From Nemertoderma westbladi (taxonomy: Eukaryota > Animalia > Xenacoelomorpha), in NCBI GenBank assembly GCA_032718475.1, contig JAUCBJ010005728.1, positions 1 through 48,729 on the forward strand: 48,729 nt of DNA, read 5' to 3'. Shown here in pieces: positions 788 through 46,460 of this stretch. The notes beneath the pieces are model-generated. The model saw nothing but the letters and a program-made list of their open reading frames with translations, did no database searches and was not told the DNA's origin. The translations under genes and the position numbers were made by a program. How positions within the stretch are numbered: the first letter of the stretch is position 1; the number at the start of each line of letters is the position of its first letter.

Positions 788-795
788 CCGCTCCC
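788..795 (-). other. Short polypurine tract of element A (GGGAGCGG)
   Basis: Abuts the LTR TGT; same GGAGCGG as element C (42486-42492). Confidence 0.65.
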
Positions 796-6846: not shown

Positions 6847-6852
6847 GGCCTT

Positions 6853-12407: not shown

Positions 12408-12411
12408 TTAA

Positions 12412-13889: not shown

Positions 13890-13893
13890 TTAA

Positions 13894-16238
13894 TAGGGTT
13901 TACTATAGGGGTTTCTACTTCACTAGCAGTATAGATGCGTGTAGGCTCCACACCTTGTGCATGAAATACTTCAGACCTAACAGGTTGACACATTGTTACA
14001 GGGGGTGGTGGTATACCCATTTGTATATTTACTAATTTATCGCACTCTAAAGCGATACTCTGCTGCACTTCTTGCAACTCTAACCTACTCTCTCTTACTG
14101 TTCCCTTTAACTGCTGAACAGTCCCTTCCAACCCTCGGACCTGCTGGGAAGAACGTAGTTTATATTCCTCCAGCTGCCCGAGCAGGGTCCCCCGCCGTCC
14201 CTCGTCTACCCACTCAACCGCCGAAGCGGGAGCCGCCAACATAGTAGCGTGGTGACGCGTAGGGACGAAGGGCGACAAGTTATTTATGTCTTGCTCGGTG
14301 TCCAGGACCGGGAGTGATTCAGGGGCTATTCTACTGGGCACAGGTAGTTTAGTACTGTGCAAAGGGAATTTAGAGTTAGGTTCTAGAAGTACAGGGGTCT
14401 CTAAAACCGGTGTGGCTTCAATGACAGGCCTAATTATTTCGGGCTCATCTACTATAGTAGGGAGTCTTTCTACTCTAATAATTTGGTCTGTGGGCTCAGG
14501 ATTACTTAAATCTACACTAGCTAGTTGCCTTCTCACAGCCGGAGGCAAATTAGGCAACTTCTGCCGGTGTGGCACTCTTCTACGTCCGCTGGAACGAGAT
14601 TTATTTCCTCTACCTTCAGGATCTGTTGTATCGCCTTCATCAGAGGATATAAATCCCTGTCTCCTGGGTGTAGATCTACTTAGCAACTGCATCTGAGTAG
14701 CTGTCCTTTGTTTCTTCAAATAATCTTGTTTCGCATGAAGGTTCTCCAGCTCTAGTTGGGTAGTCGCTTCAGACGCTTTCAGTTCTGCTTCTGCCACTGC
14801 CGCCTTTCTTTCAGCCTCTGCAGCTAACGCCTTCCTCTCAGATTCTGCCGCTGCTGCTGCCTCTGCAGCTTTTCTTTCAGCCTCTGCAGCTGACACCTTC
14901 CTCTCAGCTTCTGCTGCTGCCGCTGCTGCTGCTGCTTTTCTTTCAGATTCCGCCGCTGCTGCTAACCTTCGGTCTTCAATTTGCTGTTTCTTTAATTGTC
15001 CTTCTTGATCCATTGCTATGAGGATGCTTTCATCAAATTTAGCCTGCTCCGCGGCTAATATTTCTGCATCTAATGAGTCCAACACAAATTTGGCTCCCTC
15101 ACTATTAGGATGAAGTCCAGCTAGCCGTCTCCTTAGCTCTTTGTCACCTATAAATCGTTGATAGTCCGACAGATAGATGTCAATAGCATCCTTCTTCTGA
15201 GGTTTTTCGGATGTAGTTTGAGAAAAGGTAGCGTCTGTTGATTCTCTGTGGGTCGCGCGCTCAGTTAGCTGAACTTTCCATTGCGTCGTTCCCTGGACTT
15301 TAAGACTCAAGTACCAGTTAAATAACTGGGAGCAAATCATGGGATAGGAGTAGCGCCCACCCCTACCCTCGGGTAGCAGTTATCGAAAGAGGAGCCTTCG
15401 GGTCGCCTCCGGCTTCGGCCGACTGTTTGCTCTTGCTTTTTGCTTGTAACGACGTGTCTTGGCTTCTCGTCGAGGCTTCCTCAAAGGCTGAAAGGATTAA
15501 CCTGATCCGTAAGGTTCGTTCTCGCACTTGATAAAGCAGCTCTCCCTGCTCTTGAGGTCCTTGACATTGTTGAAACAGGTGTTCCTCTAATCGCTCCAAA
15601 GAGCTGAAGAATCCCTGGACATATCCTGCTGCCGACCTCTTCCACACAGCTGGATCTCGAGTGTCCCTTACTACTCCCATCCTGTGTAAGTCCTCCCAGG
15701 CAGCTTCCGATAAGTTAAACGGGAGTCCAGGTCCGGGGAAGTTCCATTGCGTCTCTACAATAGACCTCAGTTCCTCCATCGTATATCCCGCATAACTGTC
15801 CCTGGTCGATCGCTTACTTCTCGCCCAATCGATTTGATGTTCTTCCACAGCGATCAATACTCTAGTGAGTACGGCTCCAGGGAGAATTAGAAGTGAATCC
15901 AGATAAACCGCTTCTGCCATCCTTGCTCCGATTTCGGGTGTCAACTCTACAGTGTCTGAACTACTGGAGTTATCGGGCTGTTGAGAAATAAGTTCTCGGT
16001 TCGGGTACTGCTGCTGTTTAACAGCTGCCTCTTGGTCCTGCTTGACTTGAGCCCTAGTGCCTATAATAGACCTATGGTGCTTTACTAGCCTAGGGTCTGA
16101 CACTACTACTGTAGGGATGACCTTTCTTACAGTAGGAGGGGACTTGGACTTCGGTCTCAGAATTTCTATACTCCTATCTGAATCACAGACTGTTCTTTCT
16201 AGGAGACTATCTGACAGTGTTTGCTTTGTGTCAGCCAT
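13894..16238 (-). pseudogene. gag: N-terminal Gag extension of element A (coiled-coil, Ala/Glu-rich), frameshifted near 15350
   Basis: ORFs 15363-16238 and 13775-15340; the latter joins the Gag core in frame after MITE removal; AAAAEAERK repeats. Confidence 0.75.
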
Positions 16239-16377
16239 GATTCATAATGCAGTTGAATGCCTACTACTATAATGACAGTTAAAGTAAGTCTAGTAATTCA
16301 GTATCAACTATAAGCCTAGTAATTAATTACCGATACCGTTACTCAGTGTAACGTGATATATATATATAATATATTAA

Positions 16378-16622: not shown

Positions 16623-17678
16623 GTAATGTCAATTATTTTATGATAACTGAATTTCTGAATTTTAGGGTTACTTCCCTTTTACTTGTTACCGTAATTAAGC
16701 AGTAGTCCAACTGATATTAAGACCTAATTGATGTATAACAGGCCTACTATTTTATAAATCTGTTTGAGTTGATTTATAATATATATATACCCGTACAAGG
16801 GGTTTAACAATATTTGAAATAAATGTTATTATTTCTGAATAAGGAGTCACTATACAGAAGCTGAACGCTCTCAGTGGAGTGCTACTTGTTGGACACTATT
16901 ACTGATAATTCTACTTTACTAAGTTACTTATCACTACAAATTACTTACAATTACAATGGGTTGAGATCACAATCTCTAAATAAACAATAACAAGTTACAC
17001 GTACAATTTGTTAGGGTAATTTTACAAGAAATCTACAAACCAGCCTAACAAGGAGTTAGAATTTCTGGTTCTTACAAACTGACAGGAAACTACGGTATTT
17101 GAAAACAATAAAGCAGTAGTAAGTAAGTTGCGTTGTGCAGATAAGAAAATACCACCGTCTGACGACTTATAGTCTTAGCTCTATAAGTACTACATCATGT
17201 ACCCAGAGTGTCCTTACCTAGAGGTTAATTACCGAAGCCAACCAAAGCTAACGTGCCTATTAACCACTTTACAACATAAATATACTGCCTACACACTAAA
17301 TTAATTTCGGAAAGTACTGTACTCTAAACCCTAAATTAGGTACAAGTACTTATACAACAAATAACTAGCAGTTAAATATACTTGAACAGCCAAAAGAACC
17401 ACGGTATCTGCTGGAGTGACCGGAGCACAAAATCACCAGTCTTTACCTATGCCAAGTAGCCCTGATGTGGTACCGGGGTTAATTTAACTATAACGGTATG
17501 TATAACAAGCACAATTACTGTAAGAACCAACTTGGGGAATTGAAGGTTGCGAATACTCGCATAGACTCTGAATAATAAATATTACGCTACCCGTGCAGAC
17601 TATACAAACAAAATACAGACCAAATGCTGGCAGACTACTGTCAAGTCTAAATAAACTACAGTATAAGCAGACTCCGAA

Positions 17679-27128: not shown

Positions 27129-27392
27129 CTGTATAAAATGGATAAATTCAAAATATATGGGCGTTTTATTTTCCTTATCTAAATATAATTGCACATCTTT
27201 ATGGCTTATCTAAATAATTATACTGTATGACGGCTAATATATTATACTGTATAACGGCTAATATATTATACTGTATAATATATTAGCCGTCATACAGTAT
27301 AATTATTTAGATAAGCCATAAAGACGCGCAATTATATTTAGATAAGGAAAATAAAACGCCCATATATTTTGAATTTATCCATTTTATACAGT
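27128..27392. repeat. Fold-back palindrome at the 5' end of element C
   Basis: 27128-27271 is the reverse complement of 27273-27392 plus one extra 24 bp unit; centre at 27272. Confidence 0.92.
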
Positions 27393-29263
27393 ATGTAGCC
27401 CTACGTACATAGTTTTGTAATAAAACATAAATAAATGGCTTTATGGTAGCAAGTTTCCTATAAAAACCTTGATGCAAGCTTGCTGTTATTGATTTCATTG
27501 TATTTGTCTTTTAAATTAGCTTTATATTAGATTGTGCTTAGTGTACTTTAAATATCGCGAAATTAATGTTAGGGCCAGCATCCAGGGACGCAATCCTAAC
27601 CATTCAGCAGCCAGGGACGTGATCCATTACCATATATGGTAATAAATTGCGATTTGGAAGCCCTGAGGTTCACAATTCGGCTTCCTTATTGGCCCAGCTG
27701 TTCCAGGTTGGTCTGATGGTGGGGCGGATTGGGGAACCAATGAGAGGAATATTGCGTCATCCCTGTTGCATCACCTATAAATTGGCTGTATTTCCGGTAT
27801 GTGCATCTTAATATCTCAATTGTTACAGCAGTACCAGTGGCAGTATTGTAGTTTTGTTTCTGGTTAATTGTTAATCTTTCGTCTATCTTTCTGTATTTCT
27901 CAATCAATTACTGCAAATTACAACTTTGAATTATGATTTCTACTTTGGATTATTAATTCCTACGTGATTTAAGATGTGATAATCCCACGGGATTTCTTTA
28001 GACTGTCAGACTGTTTATGATTGCATGCGCCGCTACAGTGGCTATTCATTCTATGTTCTAATGGAGGGCTAAGGTACCGGTAGGCGGGCGCACTGGGAGG
28101 AAGCGACGGAAGGGAGTGCAGAGGATCCAAAGCGGGGCGATGCTGGCGGGGGCCACCGTTGCGGTCGGAGCTAGTCAGTTGAGGACCGGGGACCAGCCGC
28201 TGTTACAGTATTAGGGGGCTGACGATCCAGATTTCCGTCCCTACTTTGTAGTTTTAGGGGGGCAGAATTTGGGTTTAGTTAGGAGTCCCATGTGTGGCTT
28301 TGGGTGACCTGTGGTTCTTACACTGACTGACTGATTGACTGATTGGATGACTAATACTGGTATACTGATGTACTAATGTATGGGTATTTAGTGCACTAGC
28401 TGATTGGTGTAGTTAGCGCTATCTGCCGTACTACTAACTTAGTGCTACGCTATTTGTGTTGTGTTGCTAAAGAGTGCCTGATTCTTAAATGTGAATGCTT
28501 AGATAGGCGCCTTTCCCTTTGATTGATTTCCATTTCTTAGTTTATGCTTATTAATTGCTAATTAGGTCAAAATAATACCGTATTTAGACTGTTGCTAGTA
28601 TAAGCCCCAGTACGTAAAAAATTAGAAGTACGTATTCTGGAATATCTAGTAATTAGTACGCGAATTTGTATTTATGACTGTAATTAATTTAGCGATAAAA
28701 TAAAATAAGAATTTGTACGCAGCATAGCGGAGAGCAGTTTAAGTAATTGTTTTAGAATACTGTAGACTATTCACGCTAGGCGGTTATTTGAAAATAGCGG
28801 GGCAACGGGCTGACAGCAGTGTCCAGTATACAGTACAGCAGTAGTAAGTTTGCTGATTTAAAACCAGCCAAAGGCCAAGTTTCAGCACCTAGGAAAGTAA
28901 CAGATCTATCCCCCTTAATATTAAAACATTCTCACAAATTGTTCTGCCAGTGAATTCCAGTATTTTGCGATAAGTGAACTCCGAGTGCTAGGTCACCCGC
29001 ACTCGTTTTAAGTAGTTTAGGGAACCGATTCGGGTTTATTGTTTTGGTTATTCCCGCGTGGCTCATAGATTCGAACAGTTAGCTCTCTGTTGAGCGATCA
29101 ACAGAGAAAGGAACAAGCGATTTGCAGGAGCCGTATAAAATTAGTAAAATATATTAGCGGACTGCCAGGTTAGCGCCATCCAGCAGTGAGAAGCAGTTTT
29201 GTGTTTAGCAGCAGTGCTGCAGTGCGGCAGTAATAACGCGCTCCTGATCACCCCTGTTTAACA
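27273..29263 (+). repeat. 5' LTR of element C (start replaced by an inversion)
   Basis: Direct repeat of about 42560-44548, identity ends at CCCCTGTTTAACA. Confidence 0.93.
27721..27781 (+). promoter_or_regulatory. Putative LTR promoter of element C
   Basis: GC box GGGGCGG (27721), CCAAT (27737), TATAAA (27776); conserved in the 3' LTR at about 43010-43070. Confidence 0.5.
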
Positions 29264-29273
29264 GTAAGAACCA
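29264..29273 (+). other. Non-tRNA primer-binding site candidate of element C (GTAAGAACCA)
   Basis: Immediately follows the LTR end; exact reverse complement of TGGTTCTTAC at 28312-28321 in the LTR. Confidence 0.6.
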
Positions 29274-30186
29274 TTTTTTTACGTTTATTTTTTACTGTTG
29301 CTTTGCAACAGTGAGAAGTAACATTTGTTCACTAATCGCGAAATACAGCAATTCATTTGGGCCATTAGGGTAAATTGTAAATTAGTAAGTTTTTGAAAAT
29401 TTTAGCTAGGTTTGTGAGAATTCAGTTTCGACCAAAATTTATATAATAAAATCTAGAGTTTTTGTACTGGTATGTTGGATAACCGCTTAATTATTTTATA
29501 CCATCTGGAGATACATGGCGAGACGGTGCTTCTGAGTTTGGGGTTTGTGTGGGCCTGCGGGTTCGGTTTGCAATCAGCGAAAAGACTGAAACTTTGGACA
29601 CAGACGTGGAATCTCACAGCAAACAAGGTTAGTTGTTCTGTTGGCACTATAGTATTTGTGGAAGCAGTAAAAAATTACCGGTTATTTAACTGCGAAGCTG
29701 AACTCAATTTATTAGTTAGGTTAGTTAGGTTTAGCCAGCCATGGTGTTTTGGATTGCTCAGTTAGAGAGAGAGAGAGAGAGAGAGAGTCGCAACCCGAAG
29801 GTGTAGCCACGCGCTAGTGGATATAGAAATAATATTTAAAAATAAAATTACATTGATTTTGAGCTATATATATATAAAGTTAGAAATATTTGGGTGGCAA
29901 ATTCATTTTTGAATATTTTGAATTAGATTCAGAAATTATTTTTGCGTCATACCGGTATTTAAATGCTATATAATAGCTATATAATAATATTTTTGTTTAA
30001 ATATTATACCGGTATTTGCTATAACTATATATCATTAAATTCACAATATTATATTGCGAATTTATTTTGACATTTGAGACCAAATAATTTATTTGGTACA
30101 TAATTTAATTGTATTTTCGATTAAATTAATACATCTCGAATTTTGTGAGATTTTAGCCGGAAGGCAAATAATTATATACTTAGACA

Positions 30187-33100
30187 ATGAGTGTCTCAGA
30201 CAAGGAGGCACTAGAGGACAGCTATGAGACGGCGGCCGGACCGCCGACTGATAACAGTGTAGACATAACTGTCGATGACAATGCTGACTATGACGATGCA
30301 GCGAGTGACGCTGACGTAAGTGAACAGGAGGACGAGACAGTAACTAGTGAGGAAGAACAACAACCTCAGGTAATAGTATTAGGATCCCCTACCACTACTG
30401 TAAGGAAGGATTGTACAGCAGCCCGACCAGAGGTGAGTGATAAGGAGGGTAGAGTAGCAGAAGCGAGAGCCCGGAGCCCGGTTTCCAGACCTGTGGGTAT
30501 GGTAAGTGCCGTGGCCCCAGCGGCTATAAGGAGTACCCGTAGTTCCCGAAATAATCCTTCAAGTCCACCAAGTGTGAGTCAGGTAAGCGAACAGCAACTG
30601 GACATCGCGATAAAGAAGAAACTTCGCGCGCATGCCGGACATATAACTCGGACGACGGATAAGGTAAGGAAGATGCTAGCCGACTCTGGTAACATCGGAA
30701 TGGAAGGGTTAGTAGAGATTAGAAAGGGATATAACTCAGCATTATTCAAGCAGACGGAGGAGCTTGCAGTCCTACCAAAGAGAGCAGTGGAGTCCCAGTC
30801 GAGCGACGTGGCGACGAGGGTTTACGACAGGGTTTTAGCAGCCTTGTTGGAGCGTTATCGGAGCGATTTCGGCGAGTTAGGACGGAGAACTGGTTGCTAT
30901 TGGCATCACAAGCGCAGGCGACTCAGGTGAGTGACGCAGAGTCAAGATCCTTAGTGGAGCGGGAAGAGACGCAGGATAAAGAAGAGCGCCATTATCAATG
31001 GGAAGTTACCAGCTGGCTGATGCAGAGTGGTGTGGTGGTACCGGGCCAGGTGCTACCAACGACGGACAACATCCAACAGAGAACGTTAACTCCACCCGAC
31101 GACGCATCTAGAGACAGTGGCGATTCCCAGGTTAGTCACGTGCGAGGGAAGGTTATATGTGCTAGATCCCTTGTTTCTCACAACTCGGTGGAGGAGAGAA
31201 GATGCCGACTAGATGAACAGCAGGCAGAAGTTTTGCGTGCATCGGAAGCACGGAAGGAAGCCGAGCGGGAGCGGGAGCGCACACGTAAGTTAGACGCAAA
31301 GTTGCGAGAGTTGGAAGACAAAGGTAAGCGTGAGCAAGCCGAACGCGAACAGGAAGAACGAGAACTCCAACTCGAACGCGAACTCCAACTCGAACACGAA
31401 CGCGAAGAACGCAAACTCCAACTCGAATGTGAACGGGAAGCCAAGGAACGCGAACAAAGGAGACGCGAACTCCAACTCGAACGCGAGCGCAAGGAGTGCG
31501 AACTTGAGTGCGAGAAGGAGCGAAGGGCGTTGTATGAAGAGAAGGCGCGTGTGGAAGAAGAGAGCGCAGCGAGACGAGCGAGGGAAGAAGAAGAACGTAA
31601 ACTGGTGCAGTTGGAAAGTGCGAGAGTAAACTTAGAGAGCGAAGAACGGACCAGGAAGGCGAATGAAATTGCCGAGAAGGGGATGCGAATGATCGAAGAA
31701 TGTGGGGCGAGTGTAGGTACTGAGTTGCGAGAACTGTTCGCATTGCAGAAGGCCGAACAGGAAGCGAGAACTCCGACTACACGCGAGTCGACGACGACCA
31801 GAATTCCTATACCTGGTCCAGCTATTACGAGTACTCGGATCGCTAAACAGTTCTCTACATATCGCACATTAGTGCTTCACCCATCGCGCAGAATCCGCGT
31901 CACCAGGTCACCGCACCACTACATACCGAACGAGACGATGAGGAGTTTAGAGAAACTCCGACAGGGCGAGTATTTGGCGAACTGAACCCGCGGGTTTGGA
32001 ATACGTGGACGGAGCGCCGACCCAGTTTGACGGAGAACTTCCTGGTTAAACCGGAAGAGGGATCATATGAGAGACAGCGGATTACTCAGATAGAGACGAC
32101 TATACAACAGAACCCTAGCCAGGAATTTATTACGAGGGATGAGTTAAGTGCTAGTTTAGCGCAAGCTATATCGCCGCACATCCAACCTATAACGGACATG
32201 CTTAGTAACCTACGGTTAAAGGAAGCAGCCCAGGTAAGAAGTAATTCAAATCCTAGCAGGCCTGAGTTAGATAAAGTCCAACCTAGTCAACAAGTACGCA
32301 TATCGGAGGCAACTATACCACATAGACCTCAGGTAAGGACGCCTGTCCTGACTATCCATAATCCCGATTTCGAAAACTCGGCCGAGAAGTTTATACAAGA
32401 GGCTTGGGTCAGGGCTTCGGCACGCAAACCAACGCGAGCGCTGAGGACTGATACTGACTCAACCAATGAAGAGAAAGACATGAGACGTCAGAAGTCCCGA
32501 AACTATAAGGAAAGAAGGACCGACGCGGAGCAGGTAAGTTTTAATCCCCGGGAAAGGACCAGACTTAATAACCCTGCAGAACTAAACCATTTGTTAACCC
32601 GGAACGACGCAACCCTTAGAGACATAGGTAAGTTTGCTGCTAGGCAAGGACTGCTGACGCAACAACCCCAGAAGTTTATGGGCAACCACAAACATTGGAG
32701 GACGTTCAAAACCTATGTCGACGAACAACTGACCAACAGCACCTTTACTCCCAAGGAGAAGTTCAACTATTTGCTTCAAATGCTCCATCGAGAACCTAGA
32801 GCCATTGCTGACATCTTCGTCGGCAATGAAAGAGCATTTGAGTTGGCAATGAAGACGCTTAGCAACATTTACGGGAATAAAACCAAGATGGCACAGTCGA
32901 TAGTGGAAGACTTGGGGAAGGGCAGAAGGATTACAACTCCGTTAGAGCTGTTGAACTTAGCGAATGCTATTTCGAACGCATTGGATATCTTGATGACGGT
33001 GAATCTACCTCATCATGGTGATCACGCCGAAGTTTTGAAGAGCGTAATTAGACGTTTAAACATGCGTTACAGACAGAAATGGCGCAAATTAGAGAATAAG

Positions 33101-33620
33101 TTGGAGGGTCAAGGTAAGGTGTTGACACTTCAACATATTCATGACATGATAGCCACAGACGCAGTAGCAGAGATGAAATCAAATTTCTCAGAGGAGAATA
33201 TGAGAGAGTCTAAACCTGTTGTTACCGGTAAGTCTATGGTAAGTTTTGACGATGACAGGACCACTGTGACATTTAACTCAGTAGACAGATATAATTCGAG
33301 TACCCCAGCCTTTAGATCAGACTCGCGCGTATGGTCAGGTGAGCGGTTAGATAGACCTAGGTTGAAGCAACAGGAGGATTTGTAGGTTGCCAATTCTGCT
33401 TACTAAAGGAGGTAAGATCTGACGACCATAAGTTAGATAGTTGCAGACGGTTCAAAGAATTAACTTCGGAACAGAGAAGAGTTCAAGTGCGGACGTTGGA
33501 CACCTGTTGAGCATGTCTTGCGCCAGGTCATGTACGGCGGCAGTGCCCGAACAGCAAAGATAGATGCATGGAATGCGGCAGACTACATCACAAATTGCTA
33601 CATGCGGATTTCCATACTCC
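30187..33620 (+). pseudogene. gag: Gag of element C (acidic N-terminus, ERE-rich coiled coil, capsid-like domain, three Cys-His motifs), frameshifted
   Basis: ORFs 30187-30930, 30894-31985 and 32027-33385 (KFMGNHKHWRTF...EKFNYLLQML...IYGN); then CQFC..H..C, C*AC..GH..C and CMECGRLHHKLLH at about 33390-33603. Confidence 0.9.
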
Positions 33621-33839
33621 AACGGACCATTACTTACAGCGAAATCCTCAAAGGAAAGGGAGCAGAGAACCCGTATCAACAAGGAGAAATACGTACACCG
33701 GCATTCAAGACGATGGTTATCAACCAGGTTCGTCGGACGAGGATGGCGAGTTGAGCGTGAGAGAGGTGACCTGCCAAGGTTTCACCGCGGATAGTTCATC
33801 GACCAGCGCGCGGACATATTTATCATCGGCCACGTCGGA

Positions 33840-36800
33840 AATATTTAGCGTGATTCCGGTGAAACTTACTGGCGATAAGGGATCTAAGCGAATATATGTG
33901 ATGTTGGACACTACGTCCACATTATCTTATATCGACGAGGAAGTGGCCAGAGCCGTTTCTAGCTTCCAGGACGCAGAGGAAATCCAAATAGAGTTAAAGT
34001 CTATGCACGGGGTAGGAGACCTCAAGGGACACAGAATTTCGGTAGAACTAGACTCCCTACTTCCGAGATACCAGCACACTCGACAAGAACGGAGAGCTTT
34101 GCCATTAGATGGATTTAAGTGTCTAGCTATGAAGGGATTCGGCAGGCAGTTAGGTAAGGTGCCGCCGATGAGTCCCATAGCACAGGAGTATTTTGATAAA
34201 CTCAGAGTACCGAGACACTAGGTAGGTTATAGGAATGTTTCTATGTTGATTGGTGCAGAACAGCTGATCGCACACCAAATATGGGAAACGAGACCAGCTG
34301 AGCCGCATGTAAATGGACCATATGCCCATACGACTATATTAGGTTGGTATACACGAGTACCCATGTCTTATGAGTTTACAGGTGGCGACAAGCCAATGGA
34401 TAGATACGACGGATTAAAGCCTATAACTGAAACACCGTTAGTAGAACCACCAGACATAGACGAGTTTAGGAGAACCTGTATTGACCATTATAGTGACGTT
34501 AGCGAGTCGGACGAGGAGTTGATTCCCGATAATGTTAGATTGTCGGAACCACTTCACAATGACCGGACAGATAGCGAACCCGAGGACTACTGTTATCAGA
34601 CCCGTGGGTCTGGTTCAGCGGCCCACGCTACTTATCTGAGCAACGTTTTGACTTATACCGACATAGTGGAGGGTCAAGTGGCTAGATATCGAGACCTTGA
34701 CATTTTCCAATACAGTGAGGAGGAGCTACAGAAGGAATTGATACGCCAGGACCTCAAGACAGGAGCCAGAACCGTCAAATGGCTGGATAGGGACGCAATG
34801 GAACCCAGTGGATATGACCTAGCCATGTCTGCTGATGAGAAACGGTTGCTAGAGATGATGGAAGGCACCATACGTCTGCTACCGACTGGACATTTTGAAG
34901 TTGGAATGTTGTGGCGTCGACAACCTCCTAAGTTGGAGAACAACTACAACTTAGCCTTGAAAAGATTGAACGGAGTAAGCGCTCGGTTGTTGAAGAATCC
35001 AGACATTAGGGAGAAGTATTGCACCCAGATCAACAACTATTTCGATAAGGGATTTGCTGGGAAGGTAGAGGACCCTGACTTAGTGACAGACCAGACTTAT
35101 TACCTCCCACACCACTATGTGTCTCACCCTGACAAGCCTGACAAAGTCCGAGTAGTCAACGACTGCGCAGCAGTCTACAGAGGTATGTCCCTGAATTCAG
35201 AATTGATGGATGGTCCCAACCTGAACAATTATTTGATAGGAATACTGTTGCGTTTTAGACAGCGGCGATTCGCATTTACTTGTGACATCGAGGCGATGTT
35301 CCACCAGGTAAGAGCCTGTAAGGAAGACCAGGATAGCCTTCGATTTCTCTGGTTTGAGAATGAAGACTTATCCGGCCCAGTGGTTACATACCAAATGTAC
35401 GTTAGGATATTTGGCACCCGCGATAGTCCAAACGGCACGCTGTTTGTTCTAAAGAAAATGGCAACAGCCCAGATTGGTAAGTATCCAGTAGAGGTTATCG
35501 AGTCCATCTTGAGAAACTTCTACATGGACGACGGATTGGTGTCCAAGGACACAGCGGAACAAGCCATAGAAGTGCCTACAGAAGTACGGCCTACAGAAGT
35601 GCTTGGCTACAGGGGGTTTTCCTCTAACCAAGTTCACTACGAACTCGGAGGCCCTATTAGAGTCGTTCCTGGTAAAAGATCGCGGGAGCGGAGACATAGA
35701 ATTAGGGGTAGAACCCATCCCCATGGCGCGAGTACTGGGACTCGCTTGGAACCCGAACACGGACAAGTTCCAGGTAAGAGTTAGATTTGAGCCCAGTAGC
35801 CCAGACAAAGTTTTGACAAAGAGAATTTGCTTATCGACATTGAGTAGACTATTTGACCCGATGAACTTTATCAGTCCGGTAATATTACAGGCACGAGCGT
35901 GCATGAGGAAAATTTGGTTGTCCGACCTAGAGTGGGACGAACCAATATCTCCTATACATACAAAGCAGTGGAGAGAGTGGGAAGCCGAGTTGCATGTATT
36001 GAAAAATATAGATGTACCCCGCTCCTACTTTCCGAATCAGCTGGTATTTCCAGCTGATCTCGAACTGCACCTATTTAGTGACGCAAGTGACACCAGCTTT
36101 GGTATGGTAGCCTACCTTCGCCGAGAGGTAAGTCAAGACAAGTTTGAGACGGCTTTTGTGACTTCTAGATCAATGACAATGCCGGTCAAATACATGACTG
36201 TCCCTCGTGCAGAGTTGCAGGCGGCAGTAGTTTCAGTCGAGGTAAGTAAGCAGGTAACAGAGGAGTTAGACACATCATTGACCTTATTCTATTGGACGGA
36301 CGCATCCTTAGTGTTAGTATACATTGCAGCCAACGATATTGCACTAAAGACATTTGTGGCCAACAGACGCGCTCAGATCGTCGACTTTTCGACGAAGGAA
36401 CAATGGAGACATTGTCCGGGAGTGTTAAACCCAGCCGACATAACTTCGAGAGGTGCAATGCCGGCGGAATTCTGTCAGAAAGAGTCCCAGGAGTTTTGGT
36501 TGCATGGACCTGATTTTCTAACGAGGACACAGGAACATTGGCCAGAGCGACTGAAGATAGTGACCAATCCGATGCCAGAGGATGCAGAAGTCAAAGTGGA
36601 GAAAGTCTCTAAGTCAAAGTCGAAAGCCAAACTCAAGTCATTGGAGCGGCCTGAAGAGTCATTGGAGCGGCCTGAAGAGTTATTGGAACGGCCCGGAGAC
36701 CTGTCAGACCAACAGACTTACGTGACTACTAGGTCCGGAAGGGTAAGTTATGACATAAAACCACCCTTACAGACTAAACCAGAGTCACAATTGGTAAGTG

Positions 36801-38324
36801 ACGGACAGAAAATGACCGACACAATGGAGCCTTTGGTTTCCAAACCTGCGGGTTTGGATTCGAAACTTCCATTAATTAGCGGACAACCGTCGCTGGCATT
36901 AGAGCCATGTAGTATTTATGACAAATTACTAAATTCGTCTGTCTCTTGGCTGACAATTTGTAAAAGAACTGCGTGGTTAAGCCGATATGTTTCGTACCTT
37001 TGTTTAAAACATTTGGAACATTTAGGAGAACAAATGAGCGCTAATAGTGAGCGAATTCAGAAATTGAAACAACCTCTGACAGAGGATGAGATTGATCAAG
37101 CGGAATTAAAGCATTTGAAACATTATCAAATGTGTGCCTTCCCAAAAGAATTCTATCTATTATCGGCTCAACGACCAGTTCTCTATAAACCCCTTAGAAA
37201 ATGGAGTCCATTAATCCATAAGGGTTTGATTTGTCACAGATCGAGAATCCAGACTGTCGACATAAACTCACAGTTTAGGGTCCCAGTGATAATCCCTAGT
37301 CACCCAATAGAATTGCAAAGAGCAATTCTATGGGATATACATAAGAGGTTGCATCACGCGGGAAAGTTACACTGTTTGTCGGCAGCGAGACAGCGATTCA
37401 TTATATTGCAGCCAAGCAGGGCAGTAGGCACTATGTATGACGCCTGTCTGGTTTGCAAGAGAGTGAACGCCAGAGTATTGGAACAGGAGATGGCTGAACT
37501 CCCGGAAGCGAGAGTGCAGGCATATGACCCACCCTTTACAAATACAGGGGTGGATTGCTTTGGTCCGATTGAGGCAAAGAGTGGACGGCTGACCCACAAG
37601 CGATGGGGCTACTGACATGCATGGCTAGTAGGGCCATACATATCGAGCGTGTAGCAAACATGTCGACCAAATCTCTGCTCCTGGCCTTAAAGAGATTTAT
37701 GGCCAGGAGAGGATTAGTAAAGGTGTTCTACTCTGACAAGGGTACAAACTATGTCGGAGGGAATAGCGAGTTGAACGCGGCTCACAGAGCAGCGCAGAAT
37801 AGAGAAATTTCTGCAGCACTTTTGCCGCAAAGAGTAGAGTGGAGATTTAATACTCCAGAAAGTCCTTGGAGAGGAGGAAGTTGAGAGCGTTTAGTTCACT
37901 CTGTAAAGCAGGCCATTGCCAAGACGTTGCCTGTAAATAAACAACTTACCGACGACGAGCTGGTCACAGCTTTCATCGAAATCGAGCATACACTAAACTC
38001 GAGGCCGATAGCTATGTTGCCAGACGGTGTTGCATTAACGCCGAATCATTTGCTAATGCAGATTCCAGCATTTCTTGTGCCGGCATCAGAACCCATTAGT
38101 GCCGACCTATACAGTCGTAAGAGCTGGAAGGTAACACAATTTGTGGCGTACACATTCTGGGAATATTGGCGGGAATATTATCTTCCCACCATATCTACCA
38201 GATCAAAGTGGTACAAACGGTTCGGAGCCTCCAAAGAGGAGACTACGTATTGATAACCGAACCGATTGTCAAGAGAAAATATTGGGAGACTGGAGTCATC
38301 TTGCACATACACCCAGACGTGCAA
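33840..38324 (+). pseudogene. pol: pol of element C (protease, RT, RNase H, integrase) with stops and frameshifts
   Basis: YVMLDTTST, YYLPHH, KVRVVND, CDIEAMFHQV, FYMDD, LHLFSDAS, PRAEL, NPADITSRG, HHCC, GVDCFGP, SDKGTNY, GGS*ERL. Confidence 0.95.
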
Positions 38325-39604
38325 CTACTAGGATCGGCATGCTGCATTGCAGCTGCATTTTTAAGAATGCTGTGCCGGCTTGTCAACAAAATTGCACCGC
38401 CACAACTCCCTATCACCCATGACATTTGCTAGATCATCCGCATCTTTAAGGCCAGTGTCCTTTAAGATGCGTCTCAAGAAAGTCATGGGCTGTCCACCAT
38501 GCTTATTCACTCCATGAGGCTGCCAAAGTACAAGATTATGCACTGGCTGGTCCTCACGGCGAAAGCAATGTCCTGCAAAGCGGAGGCGATTTTGTTCTAG
38601 TGTCAAGCTTGGGGGAACCAATGAGACACCTCCAATGTTATATAGTGTCTGGTTGGAGATGTGTGCATTGTACTTGACACAATGAACCCGGCGTAGCATT
38701 CTTGTGAATGTGCCATCCAGAGATTTGGTGTCCTCAGCAGTTAGAGCCCAGCATGGACTCCCGTAGAGGAGTACTGGAACTACTGCTGCTCTAAATAATC
38801 GGACCTTAAGTTTCCGATTAATTCTAGGTGACTTCCAAATCCTGGAAAGCCTATTCAAGGCTGCCCATGCCTTTCCCTTACGTATTCGAAGGTCCTCACC
38901 TGACTTCCGGATCCATGATCCCAGGTAACAGAAGTAGTCCACATGCTGAAGCATACCATCCTTTGAGCTTATGCTCATCCGATCAGAGACTTGCTGAGGA
39001 CTTTCAAAGTTAACTGTCAGAATTTTGGTCTTTCTGGAGTTAATAAAAAGACCAACACTAGAAGCAGCATGTTCTAATGAGCTGAGGAGCCGTTGGGCTC
39101 CCTCTAATGATTCTGAGAGTACTCCTAAGTCATCAGCAAAGTCTAGATCAGTTAGGTACTTGGCAGGATTTCCTCGACTTCTGGAGCCAGTAGGTGGAGT
39201 TATCATCACCCCATCATCATTATGATGATCTAAGGACATGCGTAGAACATAGTCTACCACAATAATGAACAAGAATGGTGCAAGTGTGTCTGCTTGGAGG
39301 ACGCCCCATAACACTTCAAATGGTTCTGTGTCACCGTCAACAGTAGACACAAATGTTGTCGAATCATCGTATACTGATCTGATTGTTGCAATAATTTCAT
39401 CAGGAATCCCATATAATGAAAGTATGCTGAACATACGTGACCGAGAGACTGAATCAAAGGCCTTGAAGAAGTCAACAAAGATAACAGCCAGATGCCTGTC
39501 TTTCTTTTTTGATAATTCTTCAATTATCCTTCTAAGAGCCAAAATGGGCTCCATGGTCCCACGACCTTTACGGAACCCATTCTGATTTCCACGGAGCAGT
39601 CTTG
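38325..39604 (-). mobile_element. 5'-truncated non-LTR retrotransposon (RTE/RTEX-like LINE)
   Basis: 9 bp TSD GACGTGCAA (38316-38324, 39605-39613); very short 3' UTR ending in TAGTAG; removal restores integrase HIHPDVQNIVRTVTV. Confidence 0.92.
38361..39554 (-). CDS. LINE reverse transcriptase, C-terminal portion
   Basis: FVDFFKAFDSV, GVLQADTLAPFLF, LDFADDL, FCYLGS, LLYG, RLRFAGHCFR. Confidence 0.92.
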   Translation of the reverse strand: MEPILALRRIIEELSKKKDRHLAVIFVDFFKAFDSVSRSRMFSILSLYGIPDEIIATIRSVYDDSTTFVSTVDGDTEPFEVLWGVLQADTLAPFLFIIVVDYVLRMSLDHHNDDGVMITPPTGSRSRGNPAKYLTDLDFADDLGVLSESLEGAQRLLSSLEHAASSVGLFINSRKTKILTVNFESPQQVSDRMSISSKDGMLQHVDYFCYLGSWIRKSGEDLRIRKGKAWAALNRLSRIWKSPRINRKLKVRLFRAAVVPVLLYGSPCWALTAEDTKSLDGTFTRMLRRVHCVKYNAHISNQTLYNIGGVSLVPPSLTLEQNRLRFAGHCFRREDQPVHNLVLWQPHGVNKHGGQPMTFLRRILKDTGLKDADDLANVMGDRELWRCNFVDKPAQHS

Positions 39605-39787
39605 GACGTGCAAAACATAGTGCGCACAGTCACTGTGAAAATTAGGTGCAAGTGTCCGCACCCAAATAAGTGTAAAACTAATGGTTTACACACCTTGGAC
39701 CGACCGGTCCAAGATATTGTGTTATTAGAGGAGACACGCATCGAGACGGGAGATTATAATTTGTCTCCTGCCTCAAACAAAAATTAG
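39605..39787 (+). pseudogene. pol: Integrase C-terminus of element C
   Basis: DVQNIVRTVTVK...LDRPVQDIVLLE matches the element A tail DGLVRSVELV...LNRPVGRLCLLE. Confidence 0.85.
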
Positions 39788-40289
39788 TGTTGGACGCAAC
39801 TCACTTCGTATGCATTCCTCGTATGCAAATACTAGGAAATGCATAGGAGCGGGTTTGTGGTGATTTGCGTTGAGAATTTGTCTGGTGGGTATCAAAACAA
39901 AATTTTATTTTCAAAATTTTTGAAAAATTAAAAAATTTAAAAAAATTAGAAGTGAACCCAAGACAATTCCAAACGCTGTGTATAGACGCGTTTTAGAATT
40001 CGTCTATAGATATACAGTAATTTGAAAAGTCGTGAAGCCTGGAAAATAGCATTTAGAAACCATGGTGACGGTTATATTACGTAGGAGTGTAAATTGAGTT
40101 TAGCAACCTCCACAGATTGGTGCCAACAGTGCAACTAAGGTGCTAAAGGTTAGTAGCACCAGAGGCGTACACGGACTCCACTCAGTAGTTTGCAGTGAAG
40201 TGAGATGTTCGATTATCAAACCTGTGGGTTTGGTATAGTCGAGCATTGAGACTATTGTCCTTTCTAACTACTGTAGTTTAGTATGAGTA

Positions 40290-41610
40290 ATGGGAGTAGT
40301 TTGGGCATCAAAAAGTGAGTCGGTCACGGCCAGTTTATCTCCGAAGTTTTTGCGCTATGCATGGGAATAGGTTAGAAGGTAGTTAGGAATGAGACGGGAT
40401 CTAGAAAGCCGAACCTGAACTGCTGGAAGGCGGCCGGGTAGCTCGGGAAGTTTGTCCCTCCGCACCATCTAACTGATTTTCCCACAGTGTAATTGGTTTG
40501 CGTAACGAACTATTGGGATATATGTATTTGCGGCACGATGAGCCGCTACCTGCCGTCCGAGATCAATTCGACGGAATGCATCTGCACCGGAGGCCTCGAG
40601 GTGAGGATTAGGAGACGCCAAAGGTCTTCAGAGTATATAAGTTGTTCTACAAATGCGGTGAATGCATGAATAAACAAGACGTGGCGATTCCCGATCGACT
40701 GAACGAGCAACATCCTGAACCGTAACGCGATGTCAAGCTCACCAGTTCCTTAGATACAACGAGGGAGGTTACCCGATGAGCAACCCGATGATCAGTATCG
40801 ACTTTAGCGGAAAGCGACCTCCGAGACCCATTACGCCGACCGTTACGACTTTAGATCCGTATTTGGAGATTAAACCCTGTTCGACACCCAGTTTGATAGA
40901 CACGGCGGCGGCCATTTCGCTATACCGAGCCTATAAGGACTTAGAGGCGCGGCGCGAAGCGGCACGGGACTCTAGTTCCTGGACCACGTTCACTTCGCTT
41001 CACCAGGAGAGGAAGCTCACACCTGAGTATCCAGACGAGATTCGCGCCGTCCATCTGTCTACTAACTATACCCACGATCCACGATTTATACGATATTTAC
41101 TCCAAATTATTTCGGGAAGTTTCGACGCACGCATTATTAAGCCCGAATATGTCCAATCCTTTATATATCATCGTCGCTCTGATATATACGTCTAGATTTA
41201 TTATCCAGCGCACAATTGGCGGCCTAAGGAGACTCGTTTGGGGTCATTGACCTCTGAACGAGTGGAGGAGCAACGGACCGCCGCGCCCACAGCCGGAGCT
41301 CACAGCTCGCGGCAAGTTCCAGAAGGAGGAGTCCTTGGCAAGCGTCAAGCCAAGGACGAGCAGTTCCATTCTATAAAGTTGCAGAAGGAGGAGTTGGCGG
41401 AGGCGCCCACAGGGACACAGTCAAATGGGACGAGGCCGAGGGAGGAGCACCAGTCGAGAGATAGTCGGTGACCAGGGAACGTCGTCGCCGGTTCCGGGAA
41501 GTGACGCCTCACGGACGCCGTCAACAGAGTCTACAGGGGGTAGACTGGTGTATCTGGGGATGGGACAAAGGAGAGGAGCGAGCCCGGGAGACCCAGGAGC
41601 TAGCCGATGA
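40290..41610 (+). pseudogene. Accessory ORF3 of element C, homologous to ORF3 of element A
   Basis: MYLRHDEPLPAVRDQFDGM, LFYKCGEC, HP..RCQAHQFLRY and NPMISI..RPP..TLDP..LY..YKDL align in order with element A ORF3; stops and frameshifts present; start approximate. Confidence 0.75.
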
Positions 41611-42189: not shown

Positions 42190-42372
42190 GTAATATTTTT
42201 GTAAATTTAATTTTGTATGTAGTAATCATTATGTAGTACGAACGAGAAAGCAGTATTTTTGTAAATTTAATTGTATGTAATAATCGTTAACATTGAGAGA
42301 GATAATATTTTTGTAAATTTAATTTTGTATGTAAATTCATTATGCAATATCTATGGCAATATTTGTAAATAT
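42190..42372. repeat. About 50-62 bp AT-rich tandem repeat in the 3' UTR of element C
   Basis: TATTTTTGTAAATTTAATT(TT)GTATGTA three times plus a partial unit. Confidence 0.75.
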
Positions 42373-42492
42373 TAGAATTATTATAGTACCAAGTTATTTA
42401 GATTATTTGAAAGCGAATTTGTTTGTTTATTTACATCGCCCTATACTCTTCTACAATTGGAGGGAAACATTGCTTGATTTCCCTTGGAGCGG

Positions 42493-44548
42493 TGTTACGG
42501 TATGTGGCGCTGTACCTACATTAGCCCGTATTATACAGTATAATATATTAGCCGTTATACAGTATAATATATTAGCTGTCATACAGTATAATTATTTAGA
42601 TAAGCCCTAAAGACGCGCAATTATATTTAGATAAGGAATAATAAACGCCCATATATTTTGAATTTATCCATTTTATACAGTATGTAGCCCTACGTACGTA
42701 ATTTTGTAATAAAACATAAATAAATAGCTTTACGGTAGCAAGTTTCCTATAAAAACCTTGATGCAAGCTTGCTGTTATTGATTTCATTGTATTTGTCTTT
42801 TAAATTAGCTTTATATTAGATTGTGCTTAGTGTACTTTAAATATCGCGAAATTAATGTTAGGGCCAGCATCCAGGGACGCAATCCTAACCATTCAGCAGC
42901 CAGGGACGTGATCAATTACCATATATGGTAATAATTTGCGATTTGGAAGCCCTGAGGTTCACAATCCGGCTTCCTTATTGGCCCAGCAGTTCCAGGTTGG
43001 TCTGATGGTGGGGCGGATTGGGGAACCAATGAGAGGAATATTGCGTCATCCCTGTTGCATCACCTATAAATTGGCTGTATTTCCGGTATGTGCATCTTAA
43101 TATCTCAGTTGTTACAGCAGTACCAGTGGCAGTATTGTAGTTTTGTTTCTGGTTAATTGTTAATCTTTCGTCTATCTTTCTGTATTTCTCAATCAATTAC
43201 TGCAAATTACAACTTTGAATTATGATTTCTACTTTGGATTATTAATTCCTATGTGATTTAAGATGTGATAATCCCACGGGATTTCTTTAGACTGTCAGAC
43301 TGTTTGTGATTGCATGCGCCGCTACGGTAGCTATTCATTCTATGTTCTAATGGAGGGCTAAGGTACCGGTAGGCGGGCGCACTGGGAGGAAGCGACGGAA
43401 GGGAGTGCAGAGGATCCAAAGCGGGGCGATGCTGGCGGGGGCCACCGTTGCGGTCGGAGCTAGTCAGTCGAGGACCGGGGACCAGCTGCTGTTACAGTAT
43501 TAGGGGGCTGACGATCCAGATTTCTGTCTCTACTTTGTAGTTTTAGGGGGGCAGAATTTGGGTTTAGTTAGGAGTCCCATGTGTGGCTTTGGGTGACCTG
43601 TGGTTCTTACACTGACTGACTGATTGGATGACTAATACTGGTATACTGATGTACTAATGTATGGGTATTTAGTGCACTAGCTGATTGGTGTAGTTAGCGC
43701 TATCTGCCATACTACTAACTTAGTGCTACGCTATTTGTGTTGTGTTGCTAAAGAGTGCCTGATTCTTAAATGTGAATGCTTAGATAGGCGCCTTTCCCTT
43801 TGATTGATTTCCATTTCTTAGTTTATGCTTATTAATTGCTAATTAGGTCAAAATAATACCATATTTAGACTGTTGCTAGTATAAGCCCCAGTACGTAATA
43901 AATTAGAAGTACGTATTCTGGAATATCTAGTAATTAGTACGCGAATTTGTATTTATGACTGTAATTAATTTAGCGGTAAAATAAAATAAGAATTTGTACG
44001 CAGCATAGCGGAGAGTAGTTTAAGTAATTGTTTTAGAATACTGTAGACTATTCACGCTAGGCGGTTATTTGAAAATAGCGGGGCAACGGGCTGACAGCAG
44101 TGTCCAGTACACAGTACAGCAGTAGTAAGTTTGCTGGTCTAAAACCAGCCAAAGGCCAAGTTTCAGCCCCTAGGAAAGTAACAGATCTATCCCCCTTAAT
44201 ATTAAAACATTCTCACATTCAATGTGTTCTGCCAGTGAATTCTAGTATTTTGCGATAAGTGAACTCCGAGTGCTAGGTCACCCGCACTCGTTTTAAGTAG
44301 CTTAGGGAGCCGATTCGGGTTTATTGTTTTGGTTATTCCCGCGTGGCTCATAGATTCGAACAGTTAGCTCTCTGTTGAGCGATCAACAGAGAAAGGAACA
44401 AGCGATTTGCAGGAGCCGTATAAAATTAGTTAAATATATTAGCGGACTGCCAGGTTAGCGCCATCCTGCGGTGAGAAGCAGTTTTGTGTTTAGCAGCAGT
44501 GCTGCAGTGCGGCAGTAATAACGTGCTCCTGATCGCCCCTGTTTAACA
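42493..44548 (+). repeat. 3' LTR of element C (2056 bp)
   Basis: TGTTA...TAACA termini; preceded by GGAGCGG; 24 bp tandem repeats near the start. Confidence 0.93.
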
Positions 44549-45852: not shown

Positions 45853-45863
45853 TATAGTTCTAC
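45853..45863 (-). other. Non-tRNA primer-binding site candidate of element B (GTAGAACTATA)
   Basis: Immediately follows LTR end CGTCACA; exact 11 nt reverse complement of LTR segment 46052-46062 (22325-22335 in the 3' LTR). Confidence 0.65.
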
Positions 45864-46460
45864 TGTGACGGGATCAAGGGATCCCGACCGGGTTAAATCC
45901 TTACGCGTCACGACAGGCTGATGGTGGTTGGTAAAAGGGTTTGAGTTTGGTGTTCAACTGATAATATAATGTATAATATAAGATAGTGATAGCACGATTG
46001 AATGACCAGATAATAAATCAGTATATGGACTAAGGCAGTACTGCAGTGACGGTAGAACTATATTGCTGGCCTGCACTGAAACTGACCACTGAGTAAACTG
46101 AGTCACAGGCCGGTAACAAATAGATAATATATATAACACACCGATATTACTCTACCGCTACATTACTGTGGCCATTCACCCAGCGGATGCCCTCCTTCGC
46201 CCCTATTGGTCAATAACCTACTTCAAGCCTCTCACTCTCTCTGGGAGTGTTTCCCCCCCTGTTGGCCCCTGCTGGTTGTTTCCCCTTTCGAGGTGGATTG
46301 ACCTCTAACCTCCCTTTGTGTGGCTTTGGGGTTTGTGTTGTCCCCGGCGTTGGCTGTGATACGAGATTGGTTATTGCCAATCTCGTATCTCCAACATATT
46401 GCTGAAAAAGGTGCCACTTCCCTTTGTGAGGGTAGTGCGGCGGAATTGAATCTGCATACA
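45864..46460 (-). repeat. 5' LTR of element B
   Basis: Direct repeat of 22138-22749. On the minus strand: CCAAT near 46204, TATATATA 46128-46135, Inr-like TCAGTT 46096-46101. Confidence 0.95.

What the first reader, a model, noticed from the sequence alone, without database searches (positions are those of the whole stretch)
40290..41610. Diverged homolog of ORF3 at the same position in element C
Seen by manual translation, A versus C in order: FLRETYLNV..NLETR / FLRYAWE*V..DLESR; MYLTADRPLPVVPDSFEQM / MYLRHDEPLPAVRDQFDGM; LWYYCDEC / LFYKCGEC; HPRRRCSKHSFTRY / HP..RCQAHQFLRY; N*PMIRV..RPP..TLDP..LY..FKDL / NPMISI..RPP..TLDP..LY..YKDL; weaker DQPGTS / DQGTS. C reads through the position of A's stop at 2237. 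Much of this is missed by the ORF track. Inference: ORF3 is an old, selected, lineage-specific gene that co-occurs with the non-tRNA PBS.
Basis: partly seen in the sequence, partly recalled or inferred. Interest (0 to 1): 0.8.

Follow-up and report, generated by a model that had tools for sequence, protein, structure and literature searches.

The report
Orphan third gene in BEL/Pao retrotransposons
Two distantly related jumping genes (BEL/Pao retrotransposons) in this animal genome share an extra third gene that matched nothing in the databases searched and lacks the features of a viral envelope, and it likely encodes a nuclear zinc-binding helper protein for the element's own RNA.

Summary
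The homology is real, but narrower than claimed. Element A's post-pol frame aligns with C 40465-40943 (score 130, 43/151 identical; 0 of 300 shuffles reach it in each of two shuffle types, best other window tile 61). The core with MYL..PLP and CxxC..HP..CxxH is solid. The PMI..KDL block is marginal alone; FLR../LESR and DQPGTS are not above chance. Both families are multi-copy, and sites that vary among copies are mostly synonymous (A 12/17, C 9/13; at most 34% expected), so the frame is under selection. A and C group together in three Pol trees (RT 47% identical), which fits old vertical inheritance. ORF3 (about 730 codons in A) has no membrane segment and no database homolog, so it is not env. 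Best guess: a nuclear zinc-binding accessory protein acting like Cer1 CERV or Rev (about 0.35-0.4; untested). The 'non-tRNA PBS' is exactly complementary to a 10-11 nt word in each element's own LTR, a Tf1-like self-priming signature that this scan already noted in other genomes. It also occurs in element B, which lacks ORF3, so a tie between ORF3 and PBS type is not shown.

The parts
40465..40772 (+). Element C ORF3, conserved core (MYL..PLP block and CxxC..HP..CxxH motif); broken in this copy by in-frame stops at 40474 and 40609 and a frame break near 40722
   Evidence: 32 of 95 identical to A, 0 of 500 shuffles
40785..40943 (+). Element C ORF3, PMI..RPP..KDL block, in the open stretch 40719-41195
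   Evidence: collinear with A; 24 of 500 shuffles reach its score when tested alone
40290..40464 (+). Possible upstream part of C ORF3 (FLRYAWE..LESR), different frame, stops at 40368, 40380, 40416; homology to A not shown; could be decayed coding sequence or partly intron
   Evidence: 387 of 500 shuffles; acceptor-like word ending 40487
40944..41610 (+). Possible 3' part of C ORF3; no significant similarity to A; frame uncertain beyond about 41270
   Evidence: (173 of 500 shuffles)
866..3064 (-). Element A ORF3: 732 codons from an ATG at 3064, four in-frame stops, no frameshift, basic C-terminal tail
   Evidence: (4 stops against 33-48 in the other five frames)
5239..16241 (-). Element A gag-pol (broken into several ORFs)
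   Evidence: DUF1759, Peptidase_A17, Integrase_H2C2, DUF5641
17066..17075 (-). Element A PBS (same 10-mer as in C), not tRNA-like
17520..17529 (-). Element A word exactly complementary to its PBS, 444 nt upstream, in the presumed 5' LTR remnant
788..795 (-). Element A polypurine tract; presumed 3' LTR starts at 787 and runs off the window (no matching 5' LTR found)
27240..29263 (+). Element C 5' LTR (about 2 kb; its 5' end is disturbed by an inverted duplication at 27128-27392)
   Evidence: 96.9% identical to the 3' LTR over 2028 columns
28312..28321 (+). Element C LTR word exactly complementary to the PBS (also at 43601-43610 in the 3' LTR)
29264..29273 (+). Element C PBS, directly after the LTR end; begins with a splice-donor-like GTAAG
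30184..39787 (+). Element C gag-pol, interrupted near the end of the integrase by a LINE fragment
38325..39604 (-). LINE-type RT fragment inserted in C's integrase tail, 9-bp target duplication
   Evidence: (RVT_1)
42494..44548 (+). Element C 3' LTR, preceded by a PPT ending GGAGCGG as in A
45853..45863 (-). Element B PBS (different sequence from A and C), directly after its LTR end at 45864
46052..46062 (-). Element B LTR word exactly complementary to its PBS (11 nt; also in the other LTR)

Best explanation
C 40465-40943 is a broken copy of a third gene shared with element A and lying between pol and the 3' LTR; it is under purifying selection in both families, and it likely encodes a soluble nuclear accessory protein with a predicted zinc-binding site that would act on the element's own RNA, in the manner of Cer1 CERV or retroviral Rev. 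Shown: homology of the core, position, stop depletion, synonymous bias among copies, no membrane segment, no database homolog. Inferred: vertical inheritance from the A+C ancestor (about 0.8); zinc binding by CxxC..(H)..CxxH (about 0.65); nuclear location from the basic tail of A (about 0.5); expression from a spliced subgenomic mRNA (about 0.5). Committed mechanism: the protein binds full-length element RNA in the nucleus and promotes its export or expression, which an element that splices out gag-pol to make ORF3 would need.
For: Homology. Selection in A: 4 stops in 732 codons against 33-48 in the other frames; 12 of 17 variable sites synonymous against 22-34% expected (p=0.002 at 34%), while sites where nearly all depth differs from the window are 4 of 11. 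Listed small indels in runs X1-X3 all fall outside the ORF, and 7 of 8 listed pieces from run X5 (coded as another organism) have no gap at roughly 12-19% divergence. Selection in C: 9 of 13 variable sites synonymous (p=0.01). A and C in one small clade in three Pol trees. Highest 19-residue hydropathy 1.06 in A, under 0.8 in two C pieces. Cys/His motif kept in both; K/R-rich tail in A. Analogy: CERV is a lineage-restricted 517-aa nuclear protein with a Cys finger and candidate NLS, made from a spliced mRNA and needed for genomic RNA export (PMC10309623). LTR-element ORF3s are typically expressed from spliced messages (PMC5408684). The A/C PBS begins with a donor-like GTAAG, and C has acceptor-like words ending at 40276 and 40487.
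Against: The function rests on analogy only: no homolog, no usable model (pLDDT 35.0 and 36.5), no expression data. Only about 150 of 732 residues align between A and C, and the basic tail has no significant match in C. The same acceptor scan found no site upstream of A's ORF3. The motif differs from CERV's proposed C4 finger. Only 40 of 613 (A) and 40 of 120 (C) variant rows were shown, so the synonymous counts come from a subset chosen by the tool. Some copies carry larger deletions inside A's ORF3 (table 5). For three of A's four internal stops and most of C's breaks the shown rows do not say whether other copies are open.
Confidence: 0.38

Rival explanations
1. ORF3 is a counter-defence or trans-activating protein: it blocks host silencing or restriction, or drives LTR transcription, rather than exporting RNA.
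For: The same features fit (soluble, Cys/His motif, basic tail, fast divergence outside a small core). Both families are multi-copy. Retroviral accessory proteins with small zinc motifs have such roles (recalled, not tested).
Against: No homolog or fold evidence; no sign of positive selection was tested; nothing in the data separates this from the best explanation.
Confidence: 0.27
2. ORF3 is a captured host or viral gene that the lineage keeps for some other benefit, for example an enzyme too diverged to recognise.
For: LTR elements capture enzymatic ORF3s such as GDSL esterases and DEDDy exonucleases (PMC5408684). The protein is long (732 codons).
Against: No Pfam family at its curated cut-off (best E 0.0096-0.035, DUF7009), no PDB sequence hit under E 1, 0 hits in 1.84 billion representatives.
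Confidence: 0.15
3. ORF3 serves self-primed reverse transcription (chaperones the LTR-PBS duplex or processes the primer), which would tie it to the non-tRNA PBS.
For: A and C share both ORF3 and an identical self-complementary PBS 10-mer.
Against: Element B has a self-complementary PBS and no ORF3 homolog (scores 34-41, background level), though B lacks pol and may be served in trans. In Tf1 the cleavage needs the element's RNase H (title of a reference listed in PMC4600332; the paper itself not read). Earlier scan notes report this PBS type in BEL/Pao of other genomes without mentioning an extra gene (unchecked).
Confidence: 0.1
4. ORF3 is an env-like or fusogenic protein, as in the described third genes of BEL/Pao elements.
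For: It sits in the env position; ICTV lists env-like third genes in this family (PMC8742986).
Against: No hydrophobic segment long enough for a membrane anchor, only 9 Cys in 732 residues, no fusogen Pfam hit.
Confidence: 0.05
5. The A-C similarity is chance or comes from non-coding or antisense constraint.
For: Two of the five quoted blocks are not above chance; C's region has 13-24 stops in every one of six frames.
Against: Core score 117 against a shuffle maximum of 46; no DNA-level similarity between the two post-pol regions, so the match is at protein level; third-position bias in the sense frame; all antisense frames of A are full of stops.
Confidence: 0.02

Closest known systems
BEL/Pao LTR retrotransposons (Belpaoviridae) with a third gene: Tas, Cer7, roo, mosquito elements with chuvirus-like glycoprotein
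   Same: Gag (DUF1759), Pao RNase H region (Peptidase_A17), integrase with H2C2 finger and DUF5641, LTRs, PPT, third ORF between pol and 3' LTR (PMC8742986, PMC13524379, PMC554778).
   Different: The described third genes are env-like fusogens; this one has no membrane segment and no homolog. ICTV gives an 18-nt tRNA-Arg/Gly PBS, LTRs of 0.2-1.2 kb and 4.2-10 kb genomes; C has a self-complementary 10-nt PBS, 2-kb LTRs and about 16 kb without the LINE.
CERV of C. elegans Cer1 (and, by function, retroviral Rev)
   Same: Lineage-restricted, non-env accessory protein of an LTR element with a Cys-rich putative zinc finger and a basic NLS-like word (PMC10309623).
   Different: CERV shares its N-terminus and peptide sequences with GAG, is made by splicing and has a proposed C4 finger; ORF3 lies after pol and has CxxC..CxxH. 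No sequence link was found (CERV not compared directly; the library-wide search gave 0 hits). A functional analogy only.
Non-env ORF3s of bdelloid rotifer LTR retrotransposons (GDSL, DEDDy, coiled-coil, TM)
   Same: Extra ORF after pol, family-specific (PMC5408684).
   Different: No GDSL or DEDDy Pfam hit here; this ORF3 is shared by two families with only 47% RT identity.
Tf1/Tf2/Tj1 self-primed LTR retrotransposons
   Same: PBS directly after the LTR, complementary to a 10-11 nt word in the element's own LTR (PMC4600332).
   Different: Those are not BEL/Pao (Ty3/gypsy group, recalled). Here the word lies 188-942 nt before the LTR end and its position relative to the transcript start is unknown.

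Membership tests
BEL/Pao (Belpaoviridae) | Gag DUF1759, Pao-type RNase H region, integrase H2C2 + DUF5641 in gag-RT-RH-IN order | tested here: met
   for A and C; 260 relatives at E<=1e-10, the 120 listed all with BEL/Pao Pfam sets
BEL/Pao (Belpaoviridae) | Paired LTRs and PPT | tested here: met
   C LTRs 96.9% identical, PPT before the 3' LTR; A's LTR pair could not be matched inside the window
BEL/Pao (Belpaoviridae) | 18-nt PBS complementary to the 3' end of tRNA-Arg or tRNA-Gly (ICTV description) | tested here: not met
   The PBS does not begin TGG and pairs with the element's own LTR. No host tRNA set was available, so an internal tRNA match is not excluded. Filed as a variant on the strength of the Pol domains.
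BEL/Pao (Belpaoviridae) | Genome 4.2-10 kb, LTR 0.2-1.2 kb (ICTV description) | tested here: not met
   C: LTR about 2.0 kb, element about 16 kb without the LINE
BEL/Pao (Belpaoviridae) | Placement in a named lineage (Pao, BEL, Tas, Suzu, Sinbad, Dan, Flow, Sailor; names recalled) | not tested
   The trees held no named reference elements
env-like third gene | Hydrophobic signal or membrane anchor | tested here: not met
   max 19-residue hydropathy 1.06 in A, 0.47 and 0.75 in two C pieces
env-like third gene | Similarity to F-type, gB-type or phlebovirus-type fusogens | tested here: not met
   no such Pfam, PDB or library hit
CERV/Rev-like export factor | Cys-rich putative zinc site | tested here: inconclusive
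   CxxC..HP..CxxH kept in both A and C; only two sequences, no confident model
CERV/Rev-like export factor | Nuclear location and requirement for export of unspliced RNA | not testable with these tools
   only a K/R-rich tail in A
CERV/Rev-like export factor | Expression from a spliced mRNA | tested here: inconclusive
   donor-like PBS start in A and C, acceptor-like words in C but none found in A; no raw RNA reads available
Enzymatic ORF3 (GDSL, DEDDy) | Pfam match | tested here: not met
Tf1-type self-priming | PBS adjacent to the LTR and complementary to a word in the own LTR | tested here: met
   3 of 3 elements (adjacency clear in B and C; A's LTR end is uncertain); background rates 17 of 9000 (C), 1 of 4371 (B), 8 of 11791 (A); B differs in sequence from A/C and keeps the pairing
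Tf1-type self-priming | The word lies at the RNA 5' end and is cleaved to give the primer | not testable with these tools
   only contigs were available

The most novel reading that the evidence does not exclude
A BEL/Pao lineage has independently become a 'complex' retroelement: one 10-nt word after the LTR serves both as the partner of a self-made RNA primer and as the splice donor for a subgenomic mRNA, and the product of that mRNA, an unknown zinc-binding protein family, exports or licenses the unspliced genome as Rev does. That would explain why A and C keep an identical PBS although their LTRs no longer align, while ORF3-less B pairs with a different, non-donor word.
Probability: 0.15. 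Interest if true: 0.85.

Novelty: new variant of a known kind. Interest (0 to 1): 0.52.

Why it matters
The third genes described for BEL/Pao elements in the papers read are env-like fusogens. A long, selected, non-env accessory gene shared by two deeply diverged families would be a new protein family and would show that this group has evolved regulatory genes, as complex retroviruses and Cer1 have. Because both families are multi-copy, dN/dS, splice junctions and primer use can be tested directly from sequencing data. Extra ORFs in LTR elements are a known theme and the function is untested, which caps the score.

Tried and rejected
No whole genome is held for the window. Homolog searches for ORF3: 0 hits among longer proteins (333 candidates), 0 among near-length proteins with the A-C alignment (257 candidates), 0 at E<=0.001 in 1.84 billion representatives (a relative as distant as C would be near that threshold, so this does not exclude remote homologs), Pfam and PHROGs only sub-threshold hits, PDB best E 1.2, ESM Atlas best 0.83 and 0.85, below the lead level, viral contigs none for ORF3 or integrase. 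The metagenome scan gave 2 loci of 135 pattern matches; both are 21-35 residue matches inside bacterial DNA with no BEL/Pao genes and were rejected as chance. ORF3 is not fused to any of the 120 listed Pol relatives (best E 0.88). AlphaFold models had pLDDT 35.0 and 36.5, so no fold search was run. No RNA holder was listed with certainty; run X5 is only guessed to be RNA and is not used as evidence of expression. No tRNA gene or Rfam family in the window. The gag tree placed B near A with weak support (0.815, 42 rows; C fell below the length cut), so B's lineage is unresolved. A's 3' LTR has no match upstream in the window. The FLR../LESR and DQPGTS matches were rejected as evidence. Literature searches listed no paper whose title or abstract start describes a non-env third gene or self-priming in BEL/Pao; the library lacks most subscription journals and Repbase reports.

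Full report
Setting. The window is repeat-rich DNA, animal by the named relatives of its integrase, with three BEL/Pao-type LTR elements. A lies on the minus strand (gag-pol 16241 to 5239). B lies on the minus strand (LTRs 45864-46457 and 22137-22745), has gag-like ORFs but no pol signal (scores 39-65 for three Pol queries), and is interrupted by C. C lies on the plus strand with LTRs at 27240-29263 and 42494-44548, 96.9% identical. Pfam finds DUF1759 in A, B and C, Peptidase_A17 and Integrase_H2C2 in A and C, and DUF5641 in A. A LINE RT fragment sits in C's integrase tail with a 9-bp target duplication, and the integrase resumes to about 39787. The finding therefore lies, as stated, between pol and the 3' LTR in both A and C. 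No whole genome was available.

Observation. The quoted motifs are present. A frameshift-aware alignment of A's frame (stops as X) to C 39630-42494 scores 130 over A residues 125-279 (from 2953) and C 40465-40943, 43 of 151 identical with one frame break. None of 300 full shuffles (max 65) or 300 local shuffles (max 69) reaches it, and the best of the 60 tiles that do not hold C's ORF3 scores 61. Tested alone with 500 shuffles each, the core scores 117 (0 of 500), the PMI..KDL block 39 (24 of 500), the upstream part 27 (387 of 500) and the downstream part 39 (173 of 500). So about 150 residues are homologous; FLR../LESR and DQPGTS are not evidence. The two post-pol regions have no DNA-level similarity (best E 0.14), so the match is held at protein level.

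Is it a selected gene? A's frame runs 732 codons from an ATG at 3064 to 866 with 4 internal stops, against 33-48 in the other five frames. Public runs hold many copies: 13,438, 17,706 and 6,298 contigs were laid on A's region from X1, X2 (same sample as X1) and X3, and 71 from X5, coded as another organism. The tool showed 40 of 613 variant rows; 29 fall in the ORF. Of these, 17 vary among copies and 12 are synonymous, against 22% (all changes) to 34% (transitions) expected, p=0.002; 11 differ in at least 95% of X1 depth and 4 are synonymous; one lies in the stop at 1742-1744 and differs in 61% of X1 depth. Of 12 small-indel rows shown (of 14), those seen in X1-X3 are all outside the ORF and four inside it come from X5 alone, one contig each; 7 of 8 listed X5 pieces have no gap. 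Some copies carry larger internal deletions at low depth (15 of 46 joints shown). For C, 1,160, 1,602, 815 and 2 contigs were laid. Of 40 rows shown (of 120) I scored the 24 from 40284 to 41204 and left out 2 upstream and 14 beyond 41270, where the frame is uncertain. Nine of 13 variable sites are synonymous (p=0.01 at 34%; 8 of 11 without the uncertain upstream segment), and the stop at 40284 differs in all X1 depth. Other copies part from the window near 40387, 40498, 40723, 40972, 41273, 41419 and 41473, so several breaks may be specific to this copy, but the shown rows do not settle this for most stops. The counts come from rows chosen by the tool, and contigs cannot give copy number or expression.

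Age and inheritance. A and C are 47% identical in RT-RNase H, 44% in RNase H, 37% in integrase and 26% in gag; the ORF3 core is 28-34%. In FastTree trees with relatives found by A's integrase (120 listed of 260), the smallest clade with A and C has 3 of 115 rows for RT (support 0.94), 2 of 87 for RNase H (0.989) and 2 of 54 for the integrase N-part (0.923). The sample was chosen through A, roots are midpoints, no named lineages were included, and attraction between two decayed copies is not excluded. Vertical inheritance from an old A+C ancestor is the simplest reading.

What the protein is. No search found a homolog; the two metagenome loci are chance matches in bacterial DNA. Structure prediction failed. 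From the sequence: no membrane segment, a conserved MYL..PLP.V.D.F..M block, a CxxC-x(12-18)-HP..CxxH motif, a proline-rich block, an acidic, probably helical middle and a K/R-rich tail in A. This rules against env, the only third gene named in the ICTV profile (PMC8742986, whole text read) and in the BEL/Pao passages of PMC3118150, PMC13524379 and PMC554778 (passages only). Non-env ORF3s are known in rotifer LTR elements and are typically made from spliced messages (PMC5408684, passages). The closest functional model is CERV: a nematode-restricted nuclear protein of Cer1 with a Cys finger and candidate NLS that is needed to export unspliced RNA (PMC10309623, abstract and passages). I commit to a nuclear zinc-binding factor acting on the element's own RNA at 0.38, with counter-silencing or transactivation close behind (0.27). 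These steps are inferred by analogy, not shown. Supplements were not opened; the element sequences in the supplement of PMC3118150 could hold ORF3-bearing relatives.

The PBS. In all three elements the word after the LTR is the exact reverse complement of a word inside the element's own LTR region: C 29264-29273 with 28312-28321 and 43601-43610; A 17075-17066 with 17529-17520; B 45863-45853 with 46062-46052. Background rates for such a match are 17 of 9000, 8 of 11791 and 1 of 4371, and B keeps the pairing with a different sequence. In B and C the 3' end of the putative primer would pair with the first base after the LTR, the geometry needed to start minus-strand DNA. This is the signature of Tf1/Tj1 self-priming (PMC4600332, passages), against the tRNA PBS given by ICTV. 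I saw it; a later look-up showed five unchecked scan notes on the same signature in BEL/Pao of other genomes, two with a splice-made primer, while look-ups for ORF3 by place, sequence and words returned nothing. B has no ORF3 homolog (scores 34-41), so ORF3 is not needed in cis for this PBS type, and A plus C are one inherited event. One possible link remains: A and C share an identical PBS that begins like a splice donor (GTAAG), B's does not, and C has acceptor-like words ending at 40276 and 40487, the second just where the alignment to A begins. The same scan found no acceptor upstream of A's ORF3, so this is a hypothesis only.

Verdict. ORF3 is a real, selected, orphan, non-env gene of a deep BEL/Pao lineage: a new variant of a known kind. 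Its function is inferred, and its tie to the PBS type is unproven. Interest 0.52.

Noticed in passing
window 29264-29273 / 28312-28321; 17066-17075 / 17520-17529; 45853-45863 / 46052-46062: All three BEL/Pao elements have a PBS exactly complementary to a word in their own LTR region (Tf1-like self-priming signature), with a changed but still paired sequence in B.
   Followed up: partly
window 41162-41188 and 41645-41671: A hairpin occurs twice near the 3' end of C's ORF3 region, with the same 9-nt loop and a compensatory change in the stem (predicted -5.8 and -10.9 kcal/mol); a candidate RNA signal. No counterpart was found in A.
   Followed up: partly
window 40469-40487: Acceptor-like word (branch-like CTAAC, pyrimidine run, CAG) right where the A-C alignment starts; some of the stops upstream of it may lie in an intron rather than be decay.
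   Followed up: partly
window 22746-27127 and 44549-45863 (-): Element B is gag-only (no pol signal) and carries its own unexplained ORFs at 23923-24654 and 44774-45718; the first has no Pfam hit and no similarity to ORF3.
   Followed up: partly
window 27128-27392: C's 5' LTR start is replaced by an inverted duplication (127-nt arms, 98% complementary), so the insertion in B has no clean left end.
   Followed up: no
window 38325-39604 (-): 5'-truncated LINE RT fragment with a 9-bp target duplication inside C's integrase tail.
   Followed up: partly
window 3945-4662: MITE-like insertion between A's pol and ORF3 with G-rich terminal inverted repeats flanked by TTAA; part of it recurs at 47522-47869 (85% identical).
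   Followed up: no
window 17667-19479 (+): Two overlapping ORFs (280 and 353 aa) upstream of A's PBS that look like a DNA-transposon protein; only weak Pfam hits. They may interrupt A's 5' LTR.
   Followed up: no
window 12928-13674: About 163-nt tandem repeat inside A between two gag-region ORFs.
   Followed up: no
window 13775-16241 (-) and 30184-31985 (+): Both A and C have unusually long N-terminal gag extensions with coiled-coil-like repeats, with little similarity to each other.
   Followed up: no
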